Positions 1 to 4,089 of a stretch of 18,937 nt of DNA are shown here, piece after piece. Source of the DNA: a virus (Duplodnaviria; Heunggongvirae; Uroviricota; Caudoviricetes). The stretch lies in IMG/VR virus record IMGVR_UViG_2744054912_000001, one strand, 5' to 3'. The notes beneath the pieces are model-generated. The model did no database searches. It worked only from the letters and a program-made list of their open reading frames with translations, and was not told the DNA's origin. A program made the translations under genes and the position numbers. How positions within the stretch are numbered: the first letter of the stretch is position 1; every line of letters begins with the position of its first letter.

Positions 1-190
1 GTTTAATTATATCGAATGTGATTACAATCGGTGGCGGCGGCACAGTTGGTGTGGCGGCCTCAGTCCGGAACAATTTGAAAACAAGAACCTCGCTTAGGCC
101 TGTGTCCATATTACGTGGGTAGGATCAAACTGCACAGGTTAACTATTTGCAGGAGTACATCAAGACACAGTGCCAGAAATGAATCTATAG

Positions 191-254: not shown

Positions 255-1118
255 ATGGAAAGAGGTGTGGTATTTAGTGCATGCGAATTACTTAAAACCG
301 AGGATGGAAAAGGCATCCGTACAGGTAAATGGATTAGTCAATTAGAAATAAACTATCTATGTCTTTATTGGGATAAACTAGTTTCACCCACTAATAATAT
401 TATACATACAGCATTAAATAACGAGGATGAATTAGAAAAATGTGGATTGCTAACCAGACCTGTATATAGACATCATGGTTGTTTTGATGGCCAATATATG
501 GCTGATTTTTATGCTGAAACTCATGCCAAAACAATAGATATACTTAGGCATGCGGATTCTTCTGTCGATTGGCGCATGCATTTTTTAAGTGACCAAATAA
601 ACTTGGTGCCTGAATTATCTAGAACCTCAGAAGTGATACGTTTTGAGCTAGCAAATTTATTACCCGTTCCCACAGAAGATGTGCACCTACATGATATTCT
701 TGATTTCAAGGAAAGAAGAAAACCTGAATTAATCGCTTTACATGAATATCTTGATGAGCTTTACTTGGAAATAAAACGTTCTGGTGATATCAATCTTCAG
801 AAAGCAAAAGCTCTTTCTAATCTTAAACAAGCAATAAAGGATATTGAACGCTTAAATTGTGAAGTGTGGAAAAGTCCAATAAAATTTAGCATCTCTACTT
901 CCTTTGAGTTCGATTTTTCACAAATATTTAGTCTGGCGGGAACTGTTTTATCTATGTCAGTAGATTATCCTTATAATGTTATTGGAGGGGTAAGTAGTTT
1001 TGCTTATTTTTTGGGAGGATGCATAAAAATAAAGCCACAATTTCAACAAGTGTTATCATTAGGTAATGATAAATTAGTTTACATAAGCAAAGGAAAATCG
1101 GAGGGTATTATTTCCTGA
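255..1118 (+). CDS. Hypothetical protein of unknown function on a low-GC cargo island (candidate accessory or defence gene)
   Basis: 287-codon ORF with a strong RBS (AGGAG at 244-248, 6 nt before the ATG). A sampled 60-bp stretch is about 27% G+C versus about 62% in a sampled phage stretch. Codon usage is AT-biased and consistent across the ORF. I recognise no protein family. Confidence 0.6.
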   Translation: MERGVVFSACELLKTEDGKGIRTGKWISQLEINYLCLYWDKLVSPTNNIIHTALNNEDELEKCGLLTRPVYRHHGCFDGQYMADFYAETHAKTIDILRHADSSVDWRMHFLSDQINLVPELSRTSEVIRFELANLLPVPTEDVHLHDILDFKERRKPELIALHEYLDELYLEIKRSGDINLQKAKALSNLKQAIKDIERLNCEVWKSPIKFSISTSFEFDFSQIFSLAGTVLSMSVDYPYNVIGGVSSFAYFLGGCIKIKPQFQQVLSLGNDKLVYISKGKSEGIIS

Positions 1119-1137: not shown

Positions 1138-1545
1138 ATGAATGTTTTTTGTGAATATACTTATTTTAACCCTATAAATAATCAAGGTAATAAAGTGCCT
1201 CCTCGTATCCCGAAAGCCTGCCGTGCTCGAGGTTGCCGTAATACCACCACAGACCCGTCAGGCTACTGCGAAAGCCACAAAAGCGAAGGCTGGAAGCAAT
1301 ACAAGCCAGGCCAGTCCCGACACCAGCGCGGTTATGGTGCGAAATGGGATGTTATCCGTGAACGTGTGCTCAAGCGTGACAAAGGCCTGTGTCAGTTGTG
1401 TTTGCGTGCCGGTGTGGTGCGCGAGGCGAAAACCGTTGACCACATCATCCCTAAAGCACATGGCGGCACTGATGTCGACAGTAATCTGCAGAGTTTGTGC
1501 TGGCCGTGTCATAAGGCGAAGACGGCCCGTGAACGGCTGAAGTAA
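1138..1545 (+). CDS. Phage HNH endonuclease (HK97 gp74-like, packaging-associated)
   Basis: Translation has the HNH signature (C-x2-C ... DHIIPKAHGG ... N ... CWPCH). It sits immediately upstream of the terminase genes, as in HK97-like phages. The start is uncertain: the ATG at 1138 lies in the AT-rich island, and an in-frame GTG at 1195 with AAGG at 1184-1187 gives an N-terminus (VPPRIPKAC...) more typical of this family. Confidence 0.85.
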   Translation: MNVFCEYTYFNPINNQGNKVPPRIPKACRARGCRNTTTDPSGYCESHKSEGWKQYKPGQSRHQRGYGAKWDVIRERVLKRDKGLCQLCLRAGVVREAKTVDHIIPKAHGGTDVDSNLQSLCWPCHKAKTARERLK

Positions 1546-1670
1546 GAACCAGTTCCCACTGCCAGAGGGGAGGGGCGGGTCAAATCCCTGTGACCTGACG
1601 TCTTCCGGACTGCCCGCCCCATCGTTTTTTTATACCCGCGAAAAATGAAATTTAACCAGGAGTGCCGCAT
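1546..1670. other. Intergenic HNH/terS region with nested inverted repeats and a T7 run; probable cos/packaging-site region and/or intrinsic terminator
   Basis: GGGGCGGG (1572-1579) pairs with CCCGCCCC (1613-1620), followed by TTTTTTT at 1625-1631. Inner inverted repeat GGTCA (1578-1582) / TGACC (about 1593-1597). In HK97-like genomes cos lies between the HNH gene and terS (established knowledge). The exact cos nick sites cannot be determined here. Confidence 0.35.
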
Positions 1671-2165
1671 ATGGCTGGAACGGCGGGGCGTTCCGGGCGT
1701 CGCCCCAAGCCAACGGCGCGCAAGGCGCTGGCCGGAAACCCCGGCAAGCGAGCCCTGAATAAAGATGAACCTGTTTTTACGCCCATCAAAGGTGTTGAGC
1801 CACCGGAGTGGTTCGCTGAAGAAGATCTCCCTCTCGCCACGATCATGTGGCAACTGACAACTAAAGAACTCTGCGGTCAGGGCCTGCTGTGCGTGACTGA
1901 CCTCGCGGTGCTTGAGCGGTGGTGCGTGGCCTATGAGTTCTGGCGACGTGCCGTGAAAAATATTGCCAGACAGGGCAACACCATCACCGGTGCAATGGGC
2001 GGTATGGTCAAAAATCCGGAGCTGACCGCCAAAAAAGAACAGGAGTCCGAGATGAGCAGTACGGGGGCAATGCTCGGACTCGACCCCAGCAGCCGCCAGC
2101 GTCTGATTGGCCTGGCGGGGAAGAAGAAAGCCACTAACCCGTTTCTGAAAATCATCGAATCATGA
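1671..2165 (+). CDS. Terminase small subunit (P27 family)
   Basis: N-terminus [27 protein letters not shown] is typical of P27-family small terminases. AGGAG at 1658-1662 sits 8 nt before the ATG at 1671; the ORF track's 1662 start is an upstream in-frame GTG. Stop overlaps the terL start (ATGA). Confidence 0.85.
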
Positions 2166-3895
2166 GCCGGAAATCTTACCCCAACGTAAATGCTGCCAAT
2201 CAGTATGCCCGGGATGTCGTGCGCGGAAAGATTGTGGCCTGCCAGTTTGTGATTCAGGCCTGCCAGCGCCATCTTGATGACCTGATGGCGGAAAAAAGTA
2301 AGTCGTTTCGTTACCGCTTCGACAAGGACCTGGCTGAACGGGCCGCCAAATTTATTCAGCTGTTGCCGCACACCAAGGGTGAGTGGGCATTTAAGAGGAT
2401 GCCCATCACGCTGGAGCCGTGGCAGCTCTTTGTGATCTGCTGCGCGTTTGGCTGGGTCAATAAAGGCTCCCGGCTGCGCCGCTTCCGGGAGGTGTATACC
2501 GAAATCCCCCGTAAGAACGGCAAATCGGCAATCTCTGCCGGTGTTGCCCTGTATTGTTTTGCCTGTGATAACGAGTTCGGCGCGGAAGTGTATTCCGGTG
2601 CCACGACAGAGAAACAGGCATGGGAAGTCTTTCGCCCGGCGCGACTGATGTGTAAACGCACACCCATGCTGACGGAAGCGTTCGGGATTGAGGTTAACGC
2701 CTCAAACATGAACCGTCCGGAGGATGGTGCGCGGTTTGAACCGCTGATCGGTAACCCCGGTGATGGTTCATCACCCCACTGTGCCGTGGTGGATGAATAT
2801 CACGAGCACGCCACAGATGCGCTTTACACCACGATGCTTACCGGGATGGGGGCGCGACGTCAGCCACTGATGTGGGCTATCACCACTGCCGGGTACAACA
2901 TTGAGGGACCGTGCTACGACAAGCGGCGGGAAGTCATCGAGATGCTCAACGGCTCGGTGCCTAACGATGAACTGTTCGGGATCATCTATACCGTTGATGA
3001 AGGTGACGACTGGACCGACCCGCAGGTGCTGGAAAAAGCCAATCCAAATATTGGCGTGTCGGTTTATCGCGAATTTTTGTTAAGTCAGCAGCAGCGTGCG
3101 AAAAATAACGCCCGTCTGGCAAACGTCTTTAAAACAAAACACCTCAATATCTGGGTGTCGGCGCGTTCGGCGTATTTCAACCTGGTGAGCTGGCAGAGCT
3201 GCGAGGATAAATCACTGACCCTTGAGCAGTTCGAGGGGCAGCCGTGCATTCTGGCCTTTGACCTGGCGCGTAAGCTGGATATGAACAGCATGGCGCGACT
3301 TTATACCCGCGAGATTGACGGTAAAACGCATTACTACAGTGTAGCCCCGCGTTTCTGGGTACCGTATGACACGGTGTACAGCGTCGAGAAAAATGAAGAT
3401 CGACGGACAGCCGAACGCTTTCAGAAATGGGTGGAAATGGGCGTTCTGACCGTTACCGATGGTGCGGAGGTGGATTATCGCTACATCCTCGAGGAGGCCA
3501 AAGCGGCGAACAAAATCAGCCCGGTCAGTGAGTCACCCATCGACCCCTTCGGGGCGACCGGGCTGTCGCATGACCTTGCTGATGAAGACCTGAACCCCAT
3601 CACCATCATTCAGAACTACACCAACATGTCCGATCCGATGAAAGAGCTGGAAGCGGCGATTGAATCGGGGCGCTTTCATCATGACGGCAATCCCATCATG
3701 ACCTGGTGTATCGGCAACGTGGTCGGCAAAACCATTCCGGGTAACGATGATGTGGTGAAGCCTGTCAAGGAGCAGGCGGAAAACAAAATCGATGGTGCAG
3801 TTGCGCTGATTATGGCGGTTGGCAGAGCCATGCTGTACGAGAAAGAAGACACGCTGTCTGACCACATTGAGTCCTATGGGATCCGCTCGCTTTAA
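2162..3895 (+). CDS. Terminase large subunit
   Basis: 577 aa, translationally coupled to terS, with length and sequence character of HK97-type large terminases (ATPase N-domain, nuclease C-domain), placed between terS and portal. Confidence 0.93.
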
Positions 3896-3906
3896 CTGAG
3901 GTAATT

Positions 3907-4089
3907 ATGATCATGCTGATTCTCGCGCCTCTGGTGGGCGTGCTGGGGGCGCTTTTGCTGGCGTATGGTGCCTGGCTGATTTATCCCCCGGCGGGGTTTG
4001 TTGTTGCCGGGGCGTTGTGCCTGTTCTGGTCGTGGCTGGTGGCGCGATATCTCGACCGTACACAGTCGTCTGTCGGCGGAGGTAAATAG
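3907..4089 (+). CDS. Small hydrophobic protein (two predicted transmembrane segments), unknown function
   Basis: 60 aa; GAGG RBS 7 nt upstream of the ATG. Two hydrophobic stretches ([22 protein letters not shown] and [17 protein letters not shown]). Its stop overlaps the portal GTG start by 1 nt. Same GC content as neighbours. Confidence 0.5.

What the first reader, a model, noticed from the sequence alone, without database searches (positions are those of the whole stretch)
1546..1670. Probable cos / terminase recognition region with nested inverted repeats between HNH and terS
In HK97-type phages the HNH endonuclease is the last gene before cos and works with terminase in cos cleavage, so the prophage's packaging origin should lie in this 125-bp gap. 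The gap contains an 8-bp G/C inverted repeat with a long loop, an inner GGTCA/TGACC repeat and a T7 run. These could be terminase binding elements, a terminator for the preceding transcription unit, or both.
Basis: partly seen in the sequence, partly recalled or inferred. Interest (0 to 1): 0.4.

Follow-up and report, generated by a model that had tools for sequence, protein, structure and literature searches.

The report
Cohesive-end (cos) site of SfV-like prophage

Summary
All described features are present: GGGGCGGG 1572-1579 / CCCGCCCC 1613-1620, GGTCA/TGACC, and T7 at 1625-1631. None is statistically unusual alone (an 8-bp repeat arises in 8.6% of shuffles).

The 10-mer TGCCCGCCCC (1611-1620) is the cohesive end mapped by run-off sequencing of phage SfI virion DNA. 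It aligns with the annotated phiP27 cos-site and with the virion ends of Burkholderia phi644-2 and HK97. Window 1604-1760 is 100% identical to SfV.

The right arm of the inverted repeat is therefore the overhang itself. The left arm belongs to a separate conserved G-rich box plus TCAAATC (1567-1586), which sits in the same register, 34 bp from the nick, in HK97. The arms do not co-vary in relatives, so the repeat is incidental. The inner repeat is not conserved. The T-run is an A/T tract, replaced by A6 in two relatives, which argues against a terminator.

The best-conserved element, CCCGCGAAAAATGAAATTTAA (1635-1655, +15 to +35), is the likely small-terminase site. It has two variants that track two TerS N-terminal arm types without exception (123/123).

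This is already known biology, present in 21% of complete E. coli genomes. Low interest.

The parts
1195..1545 (+). HNH endonuclease gene, related to HK97 gp74 and the last gene before cos.
   Evidence: Pfam HNH PF01844, E = 2.8e-16. BLASTP against HK97 gp74 gives E = 1e-9. The best PDB match is 5h0m, deposited as an HNH endonuclease, E = 2e-12. RefSeq gene calls in a near-identical prophage map to 1195-1545.
1567..1586 (+). Conserved upstream cos element: G-box GGGGAGGGGCGGG (1567-1579) plus TCAAATC (1580-1586), at -54 to -35 from the top-strand nick. It contains the left arm of the 8-bp inverted repeat (1572-1579). Its partner is unknown. I infer a lambda-cosQ-like termination signal or a TerL/HNH docking element.
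   Evidence: It is conserved in 71 non-redundant cos regions of the SfV, P27 and Burkholderia groups and in HK97-like phages. TCAAATC ends 34 nt before the nick in both the window and HK97. Upstream 62 nt of HK97 versus the window are 30/62 identical without gaps, against 16.2 +/- 3.4 for shuffles (1 of 10,000 reaches this).
1587..1607 (+). Variable spacer. It contains the inner-repeat arm TGACC (1591-1595) and the palindromes GACGTC and TCCGGA.
   Evidence: This is the most variable part of the gap among prophages whose TerS is at least 99% identical. TGACC is often CGGCC there. In the Burkholderia lineage the homologous positions hold a co-varying 6-bp dyad, but the window has none in that register.
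1608..1610 (+). GAC triplet immediately 5' of the cohesive end. It flanks the bottom-strand nick at 1610|1611.
   Evidence: GAC occupies -13 to -11 in 165 of 168 related cos regions and in HK97. Relatives usually read GAC-N10-GTC, a two-fold symmetric frame. The window has ATC on the right side.
1611..1620 (+). Cohesive end TGCCCGCCCC. It would be a 10-nt 3' overhang on the right virion end, with its complement on the left end. The top-strand nick is at 1620|1621. It includes the right arm of the inverted repeat (1613-1620).
   Evidence: The 10-mer occurs once in the window. It is identical to the 10-nt gap found by run-off sequencing of SfI virion DNA (PMC3636060). It aligns with the phiP27 'cos-site' feature CGCCCGCCCC and with the phi644-2 right-end 3' extension 5'-CGCCCGCTTC-3' (PMC2920897). 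The SfI and phi644-2 records start at the position equal to window 1621.
1621..1634 (+). A/T-rich tract ATCGTTTTTTTATA (+1 to +14), including the T7 run at 1625-1631. It is probably flexible or bent DNA lying between the nick and the TerS site.
   Evidence: An A/T run at +4 to +11 is conserved, but it is A6 rather than T-rich in L126 and L134. The equivalent HK97 segment, GTTTGAATTTAACG, is also A/T-rich.
1635..1655 (+). Predicted small-terminase (TerS) recognition site CCCGCGAAAAATGAAATTTAA (+15 to +35), the 'type A' variant.
   Evidence: CCGCGAAA is near-invariant across E. coli, Edwardsiella and Burkholderia phages. The type A tail (AATGAAATTT) always accompanies a TerS N-arm GRSGR(R/K) (65/65), and the type B tail (TTAAAAATT) always accompanies GRGRK (58/58). 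The position and make-up, CCCG followed by an A/T tract, match the HK97 TerS minimal site at +15 to +29, CTAACCCGATTTTTT (PMC11331095).
1671..2165 (+). terS, a P27-family small terminase. A Shine-Dalgarno AGGAG lies at 1658-1662.
2162..3895 (+). terL, the large terminase (ATPase plus nuclease), of HK97 type.
   Evidence: Pfam TerL_ATPase and TerL_nuclease. The only PDB sequence match is 6z6d_A, deposited as 'Terminase large subunit', E = 4.7e-25. Assigning 6z6d to HK97 rests on my own knowledge, supported by PMC9410871, which reports the HK97 TerL crystal structure.

Best explanation
Window 1546-1670 is the cos (cohesive end) region of an SfV-like temperate phage that packages DNA the HK97 way. 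After induction, concatemeric phage DNA is cut here by large terminase (gene 2162-3895), helped by the adjacent HNH protein (1195-1545) and directed by small terminase (1671-2165). The nicks are staggered: the top strand between 1620 and 1621, and the bottom strand between 1610 and 1611. This leaves 10-nt 3' overhangs (TGCCCGCCCC-3' on the HNH-side end), which re-anneal on infection.

I infer that TerS recognises CCCGCGAAAAATGAAATTTAA at +15 to +35 (1635-1655), using its basic N-terminal arm and an A/T tract, as HK97 TerS does at its own +15 to +29 site. That would stall the motor with the cut site in the nuclease.

A second conserved element, the G-box plus TCAAATC at -54 to -35 (1567-1586), is part of the site, but its partner is unknown. 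I infer a lambda-cosQ-like termination or docking signal.

The 8-bp inverted repeat is a by-product: a G-rich box and a C-rich overhang happen to be complementary in this lineage.

What is shown: sequence identity with experimentally mapped relatives, the conservation pattern, and the association between site type and TerS arm type. What is inferred: overhang polarity in this prophage, TerS contact at 1635-1655, and the role of the G-box.
For: - **Mapped relatives.** TGCCCGCCCC occurs once in the window, at 1611-1620, and equals the 10-nt gap found by run-off sequencing of SfI virion ends (PMC3636060). Window 1604-1760 is 100% identical to SfV (H46). The SfI record ends at the position equal to window 1620 (H42) and starts at 1621 (H15). 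The phiP27 record annotates the homologous 10-mer as 'cos-site'. Phi644-2 starts at the homologous +1 and has 10-base 3' extensions, 5'-CGCCCGCTTC-3' on the right end (PMC2920897). HK97 ends align in register.
- **Gene context.** The HNH gene lies directly upstream and is related to HK97 gp74. TerL's only PDB sequence match is 6z6d, 4.7e-25. TerS is P27-family.
- **Conservation.** In 71 non-redundant cos regions aligned without gaps on the nick, the conserved blocks are the G-box, TCAAATC, GAC, the overhang, the A/T tract and CCGCGAAA. GAC is present in 165 of 168.
- **Frequency.** The gap is found in 1162 of 5426 complete E. coli genomes.
Against: - No virion DNA from this particular prophage was examined, so use of the site here is inferred from identity with SfV and SfI.
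- The prophage carries an IS3 insertion in its Rz-like lysis gene and may not produce particles.
- SfV's own cos was only 'postulated' according to the SfI paper, and the SfV record starts 7 nt upstream of the 10-mer, at window 1604.
- The association between site type and N-arm type could reflect physical linkage, since the two lie 25-50 nt apart, rather than recognition.
- Nothing tested here assigns a function to the G-box.
Confidence: 0.9

Rival explanations
1. The G/C stem (1572-1579 with 1613-1620) followed by AUCG-U7 forms a Rho-independent terminator. It would end transcription of the lysis/HNH unit, alone or in addition to the cos function.
For: The RNA fold of 1568-1634 uses the 8-bp stem, gives -26.8 kcal/mol and z = -2.45, and a U7 run begins 4 nt after the stem. 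A Q-family antiterminator gene lies upstream in a near-identical prophage, so late transcription could read through such a signal.
Against: The loop is 33 nt and the terminator scan did not call the site. The whole-gap fold is not unusual (z = -0.78). Stem complementarity is 8/8 in only 7 of 71 relatives. G-box variants such as GGGGGAGG occur with an unchanged overhang, with no compensating change. The T-run is A6 in L126 and L134 and only T4 in Burkholderia phages, which fits a DNA-shape role rather than a U-tract. In lambdoid phages, terminase, head and tail genes downstream are expressed by late transcription across cos (general knowledge).
Confidence: 0.1
2. The nested inverted repeats are themselves the recognition element. 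A dyad-symmetric protein site, or an extruded hairpin or cruciform, would be bound by terminase or HNH, with the arm pairing functionally required.
For: The repeat is perfect over 8 bp and includes the cut site. In the Burkholderia lineage a different short dyad in the spacer (-30 to -16) does co-vary: 4 of 6 pairs change on both sides, and 0 of 500 shuffles reach this. Relatives show a GAC-N10-GTC symmetry around the overhang.
Against: An 8-bp repeat is expected by chance in about 9% of such segments. The arms do not co-vary across 71 relatives. HK97 keeps the G-box in register, but its overhang CGCCGCCAAA is not complementary to it. The inner repeat arm TGACC varies freely among near-identical prophages. 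The window has no stem in the register of the Burkholderia dyad.
Confidence: 0.07
3. The site is an inactive relic. The prophage is defective and this cos sequence is no longer used for packaging.
For: An IS3 end occupies window 1-127 and interrupts the Rz-like lysis gene that is intact in related prophages.
Against: The cos core and terS start are 100% identical to SfV. The HNH, terS, terL, portal, protease and capsid ORFs are all full length with strong family matches. A spanin defect impairs lysis, not packaging. A relic would still be a cos site by origin.
Confidence: 0.15

Closest known systems
cos site of Shigella serotype-converting phages SfI, SfV, SfII and SfIV
   Same: The 10-mer TGCCCGCCCC is identical, in the same HNH-cos-terS position. 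Window 1604-1760 is 100% identical to SfV, and the compared segments are 96-98% identical to SfI, SfII and SfIV. This is the same element.
   Different: Only the first ~20 nt after the HNH stop codon and a few spacer positions differ. Upstream of HNH this prophage carries a DUF6236 gene and an IS3 insertion, which those phages do not show in the compared region.
cos site of Stx2e phage phiP27 (type phage of the P27 TerS family)
   Same: The G-box, TCAAATC, GAC and overhang match (CGCCCGCCCC versus TGCCCGCCCC), all with identical spacing, and CCCGCGAAA sits at +15.
   Different: PhiP27 has the type B tail (TTAAAAATTT) and the GRGRK TerS N-arm, where the window has type A (AATGAAATTT) and GRSGRR.
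cos site of Burkholderia siphoviruses phi644-2, phiE125 and phi1026b
   Same: They have 10-base 3' extensions at the homologous position. The downstream element CCCGCGAAAAATGAAATTTAA (type A) is near-identical, and the TerS arm GRSGRR is the same.
   Different: The overhang is CGCCCGCTTC. AAAAAGTC replaces TCAAATC. The spacer holds a co-varying 6-bp dyad that the window lacks. The tail type and host are also different.
HK97 cos with TerS gp1, TerL gp2 and HNH gp74
   Same: The gene order HNH-cos-terS-terL is the same, and the TerL and HNH proteins are homologous. The G-box plus TCAAATC ends 34 bp from the nick, and GAC lies just before a 10-nt C-rich overhang. CCCG followed by an A/T tract lies 15-30 bp downstream, where HK97 TerS binds.
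   Different: The TerS proteins share no detectable sequence similarity. The overhang sequence differs (CGCCGCCAAA). CCCG sits 4 nt further from the nick. The HNH-to-cos distance is 319 nt in HK97 versus 65 nt to the overhang here.
lambda cos (cosQ-cosN-cosB)
   Same: The logic has three parts: an upstream element, a nicking site with partial two-fold symmetry, and a downstream TerS-binding region next to the terS gene.
   Different: Lambda makes 12-nt 5' overhangs, uses repeated R sites plus an IHF site, and needs no HNH protein (general knowledge). No IHF-consensus match with one mismatch or fewer lies in 1546-1670.

Membership tests
SfV/SfI-type cos site (P27-family TerS phages) | The 10-nt cohesive-end sequence TGCCCGCCCC lies between the HNH and terS genes. 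| tested here: met
   There is a single exact match at 1611-1620. The sequence is as published for SfI.
SfV/SfI-type cos site (P27-family TerS phages) | The flanking sequence is collinear with reference phages, and reference records break at the same position. | tested here: met
   Window 1604-1760 is 100% identical to SfV. The SfI record ends at 1620 and starts at 1621. The phiP27 cos-site feature aligns to 1611-1620.
SfV/SfI-type cos site (P27-family TerS phages) | An adjacent P27-family small terminase (PF05119). | tested here: met
   Terminase_4, E = 2.4e-21. All listed homologues carry PF05119.
SfV/SfI-type cos site (P27-family TerS phages) | Virion DNA ends of this element map to the site. 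| not testable with these tools
   This needs induced-particle DNA. Only relatives have been mapped.
HK97-type cos packaging system | An HNH endonuclease gene is the last gene before cos and is homologous to gp74. | tested here: met
   PF01844. BLASTP against gp74 gives E = 1e-9 over the HNH core. The HNH stop codon is 65 nt upstream of the overhang.
HK97-type cos packaging system | A large terminase homologous to HK97 gp2. | tested here: met
   The only PDB sequence hit is 6z6d_A, E = 4.7e-25, covering residues 112-556. Assigning 6z6d to HK97 rests on my own knowledge and on PMC9410871.
HK97-type cos packaging system | A small terminase of the HK97 gp1 family or fold. | tested here: inconclusive
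HK97-type cos packaging system | The cos architecture is shared in register with HK97: G-box/TCAAATC, then GAC, then a 10-nt C-rich overhang. | tested here: met
   Upstream sequence is 30/62 identical without gaps, against 16.2 +/- 3.4 for shuffles. TCAAATC lies 34 nt from the nick in both.
HK97-type cos packaging system | 10-nt 3'-protruding ends. | not testable with these tools
   This is reported for HK97 and phi644-2. For SfI it is inferred from the 10-nt 'gap' seen in run-off reads.
Rho-independent terminator | A compact G+C-rich hairpin immediately followed by a U-run. | tested here: inconclusive
   There is an 8-bp stem, but with a 33-nt loop, and the U7 run starts 4 nt after it. The site is not called by the scan. 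The local fold gives z = -2.45.
Rho-independent terminator | The stem pairing and the U-run are maintained in relatives. | tested here: not met
   Pairing is 8/8 in only 7 of 71 relatives, with no compensation. The run is A6 in L126 and L134.
lambda-type cos | An IHF site and repeated TerS R-sites beside cosN, with 12-nt 5' overhangs. | tested here: not met
   No WATCAANNNNTTR match with one mismatch or fewer lies in 1546-1670. No direct repeats of 8 nt or more lie in 1480-1720. Relatives have 10-nt 3' ends.

The most novel reading that the evidence does not exclude
The cos sites of HK97, SfV/P27-type enteric phages and Burkholderia phiE125-type phages may share one ancestral three-part architecture. 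Two of its features have not, as far as I could find, been characterised.

(1) A G-box plus TCAAATC element is fixed 35-54 bp upstream of the nick. It could be a cosQ-like termination signal or an HNH/TerL/portal docking signal.

(2) There may be a swappable specificity module: CGCGAAA followed by AATGAAATTT or TTAAAAATT, paired with a TerS N-terminal arm GRSGRR or GRGRK. That would point to a simple arm-to-site recognition code, and to recombination hot spots at the nick itself. L110 joins a window-type left half to a P27-type right half.
Probability: 0.35. Interest if true: 0.45.

Novelty: already known. Interest (0 to 1): 0.15.

Why it matters
Knowing the exact cos position fixes the virion genome ends for this very common prophage family, found in about a fifth of complete E. 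coli genomes. That helps prophage annotation and the prediction of cos-type rather than headful packaging, and so of low generalized transduction. It also helps identify satellites or plasmids that could hijack this terminase by carrying the same site. The comparison further gives testable positions for TerS binding (1635-1655) and for a second conserved subsite (1567-1586), which could extend the HK97 structural model to the much larger P27 TerS family. The finding itself adds nothing new: the site was mapped in SfI in 2013.

Tried and rejected
- **Rfam.** A gathering-threshold scan of the whole window found no RNA family.
- **Terminator and promoter scan.** Nothing was called in the gap.
- **IHF consensus.** There is no match with one mismatch or fewer in the gap, so a lambda-like IHF-assisted cosB is not supported.
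- **Inner GGTCA/TGACC repeat.** Rejected as functional, because TGACC varies (often CGGCC) among prophages with 99-100% identical TerS.
- **Outer repeat as a paired element.** Rejected: it is not above chance and shows no co-variation.
- **G-quadruplex in the G-box.** Considered from the sequence. The window has only three G-runs on one strand, so this was not pursued.
- **SfV genome paper.** Two attempts to read Allison et al. 2002 failed because it is not held. SfV's own cos evidence is therefore second-hand, through the SfI and SfIV papers.
- **Dyad in the window's spacer.** A conserved dyad like the Burkholderia one was looked for by eye, and none was found in that register.

Full report
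**What is there**

The window is the late region of an SfV-like temperate phage with HK97-type head genes and a contractile tail. In order it encodes:
- an HNH endonuclease (1195-1545)
- a P27-family small terminase (1671-2165)
- a large terminase (2162-3895)
- portal, prohead protease, major capsid and tail sheath proteins

RefSeq gene calls in a near-identical E. coli prophage give the same HNH and terS coordinates. The 125-nt gap 1546-1670 is therefore real.

**The observation**

All three features are present as described:
- GGGGCGGG 1572-1579 / CCCGCCCC 1613-1620, with 33 nt between the arms
- GGTCA 1578-1582 / TGACC 1591-1595
- T7 at 1625-1631

They are not remarkable on their own:
- An 8-bp or longer perfect inverted repeat turns up in 8.6% of dinucleotide shuffles of the gap, and in 66 of 753 sliding windows of this sequence.
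- The whole-gap RNA fold is ordinary (z = -0.78).
- Only the local 1568-1634 fold is somewhat better than shuffles (z = -2.45).
- Rfam and the terminator scan report nothing here.

**What it is**

Searching phage records found the SfV group at 94-99% identity.

| Relative | Evidence | Source |
|---|---|---|
| SfI | Direct sequencing of virion DNA ends, compared with the prophage, revealed a 10-nt gap, 5'-TGCCCGCCCC-3', taken as the cos site | PMC3636060, |
| SfIV | Its paper states the same cos is present in SfI, SfII, SfV and SfIV | PMC3851460, |
| SfV | Window 1604-1760 is 100% identical to the record | |
| SfI record | Ends at the position equal to 1620 and starts at 1621 | |
| phiP27 | Annotates the homologous 10-mer CGCCCGCCCC as 'cos-site' | |

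That 10-mer occurs once in the window, at 1611-1620.

A gap in run-off reads from both ends is what a 3' overhang produces, because the template 5' ends are recessed (my inference). I therefore place the nicks at 1620|1621 on the top strand and 1610|1611 on the bottom strand.

**Anatomy from comparison**

I collected terS-upstream regions from viral contigs, using SfV-, P27-, phi644-2- and HK97-type TerS as queries. I aligned 71 non-redundant P27-family cos regions on the nick without gaps. The conserved blocks are:

| Block | Position relative to the nick | Window coordinates |
|---|---|---|
| G-box GGGGAGGGGnGG | -54 to -42 | 1567-1579 |
| TCAAATC-like heptamer | -41 to -35 | 1580-1586 |
| GAC (165 of 168) | -13 to -11 | 1608-1610 |
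| Overhang YGCCCGCyyy | -10 to -1 | 1611-1620 |
| Usually GTC | +1 to +3 | ATC at 1621-1623 |
| A/T run | +4 to +11 | within 1621-1634 |
| Near-invariant CCGCGAAA | +16 to +23 | within 1635-1655 |
| One of two tails: type A AATGAAATTT or type B TTAAAAATT | after +23 | type A, within 1635-1655 |

The spacer 1587-1607 is the most variable part, even among prophages with identical TerS.

HK97 keeps the left half in register:
- GGGGGGGGATCAAATC ends 34 nt before its right end, exactly as in the window.
- GAC precedes its overhang.
- 30 of 62 upstream positions match without gaps, against 16.2 +/- 3.4 for shuffles.

**The inverted repeats**

The right arm of the outer repeat is the overhang itself, and the left arm lies within the G-box. 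Across the 71 relatives the eight pairs are all complementary in only 7. G-box variants such as GGGGGAGG occur with an unchanged overhang, and overhang variants such as CTTC or CTTG occur with no compensating G-box change. HK97's overhang is not complementary to its own G-box. The repeat is therefore incidental to two independently conserved G-rich and C-rich elements. The inner repeat is not conserved.

**The T-run and the terminator idea**

The run is T4-T7 in most relatives but A6 in L126 and L134. This fits an A/T tract acting through DNA shape, not a U-tract. Together with the lack of stem conservation, it leaves the terminator reading weak, though not excluded for this lineage.

**The likely TerS site**

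In HK97, TerS binds a minimal 15-bp site at +15 to +29 (CTAACCCGATTTTTT). Arg128 reads the G:C pair at position 21, the N-terminal arm (Lys4, Arg5, Arg7) lies in the minor groove, and the A-tract is essential but can be flipped (PMC11331095; sequence). The window has CCCGCGAAAAATGAA at the same +15 to +29.

The two tail variants track TerS N-arm types without exception:
- Type A goes with GRSGR(R/K), 65 of 65.
- Type B goes with GRGRK plus a 3-residue extension, 58 of 58.

This holds in both enteric and Burkholderia lineages, while the rest of TerS groups by host. L111 (type A) and L156 (type B) share an identical 85-nt left half. Physical linkage is a caveat, because the site and the arm lie 25-50 nt apart.

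TerL and HNH are clearly of the HK97 type. HK97 gp74 stimulates cos cleavage by TerL (PMC9410871).

One caution on the literature: the Discussion of PMC9410871 gives '12-nt 3' overhangs' for HK97. Its own Fig. 1 legend and PMC11331095 both say 10 nt.

**The G-box**

No tool result assigns it a function. In the HK97 termination complex about 25 bp of DNA fills the TerL lumen and ends at the TerL-portal interface (PMC10359639). DNA 35-54 bp upstream of the cut would therefore already lie in the portal or capsid. By analogy with lambda cosQ, whose mutations are suppressed by portal changes (a reference listed in that paper), a termination-signal role is plausible but untested.

**Verdict**

This is a correct call on a known, very common element, present in 1162 of 5426 complete E. 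coli genomes. Interest is low. The register-conserved G-box and the arm/site pairing are the only parts that may be new.

Noticed in passing
window 1-127: This is the terminal ~127 nt of an IS3-family element, which matches thousands of IS3 copies in E. coli. It is inserted into the 3' part of the prophage's Rz-like 'lysis protein' gene, and window 128-182 is the remaining gene end. The prophage may be lysis-impaired.
   Followed up: partly
window 255-1118: An AT-rich gene for a DUF6236 protein (Pfam E = 2e-31) sits between the lysis cassette and HNH. It is absent from SfV, SfI and phiP27 at this position, and only 31 E. coli records contain the whole arrangement. It looks like a moron or cargo gene of unknown function.
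   Followed up: partly
L111-L158 (Burkholderia phi644-2/phiE125-like loci), -30 to -16 from the nick; homologous to window 1591-1605: A 6-bp dyad or hairpin lies in the cos spacer (for example GAAGGC-GCT-GCCTTC) and co-varies. 4 of 6 pairs change on both sides, 91.7% of cells are paired, and 0 of 500 shuffles reach this. P27-like variants (GCAGCCCGCGGCCTGC) and HK97 (CAAA-ACC-TTTG) also have short dyads here. The window's lineage does not.
   Followed up: partly
L110 (viral contig IMGVR_UViG_2896595138_000008), cos region: This is a hybrid cos. The left half (spacer plus overhang CCCTGTGACCTGACGTCTTCCGGACTGCCCGCCCC) is identical to the window, and it is joined exactly at the nick to a phiP27-type right half (GTCAAATTTTTACACCCGCGAAATTAAAAATTTCAGG). 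This suggests module exchange at or near the cohesive end.
   Followed up: no
L111 versus L156, and the window versus phiP27: Two TerS N-terminal arm types (GRSGRR versus xxxVPGRGRK) are each linked to one variant of the downstream cos element. They have been exchanged independently of the rest of TerS in both enteric and Burkholderia phages.
   Followed up: yes
window 3907-4089 and 3925-3952: A small ORF lies between terL and portal and is annotated ymfR in a related prophage. The strongest terminator-like hairpin of the window (12 pairs, followed by TTTTG) lies inside it.
   Followed up: no
window 2162-2165: The terS stop codon and terL start codon overlap (ATGA), consistent with translational coupling of the two terminase subunits.
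   Followed up: no
U82619.2 (SfV), KC736978 (SfII) and AY055382 (ST64B) record starts: The reference records for these phages start at positions equal to window 1604, 1546 and 1656 respectively, not at the mapped end (1621). Their coordinate origins are conventions rather than true termini.
   Followed up: partly
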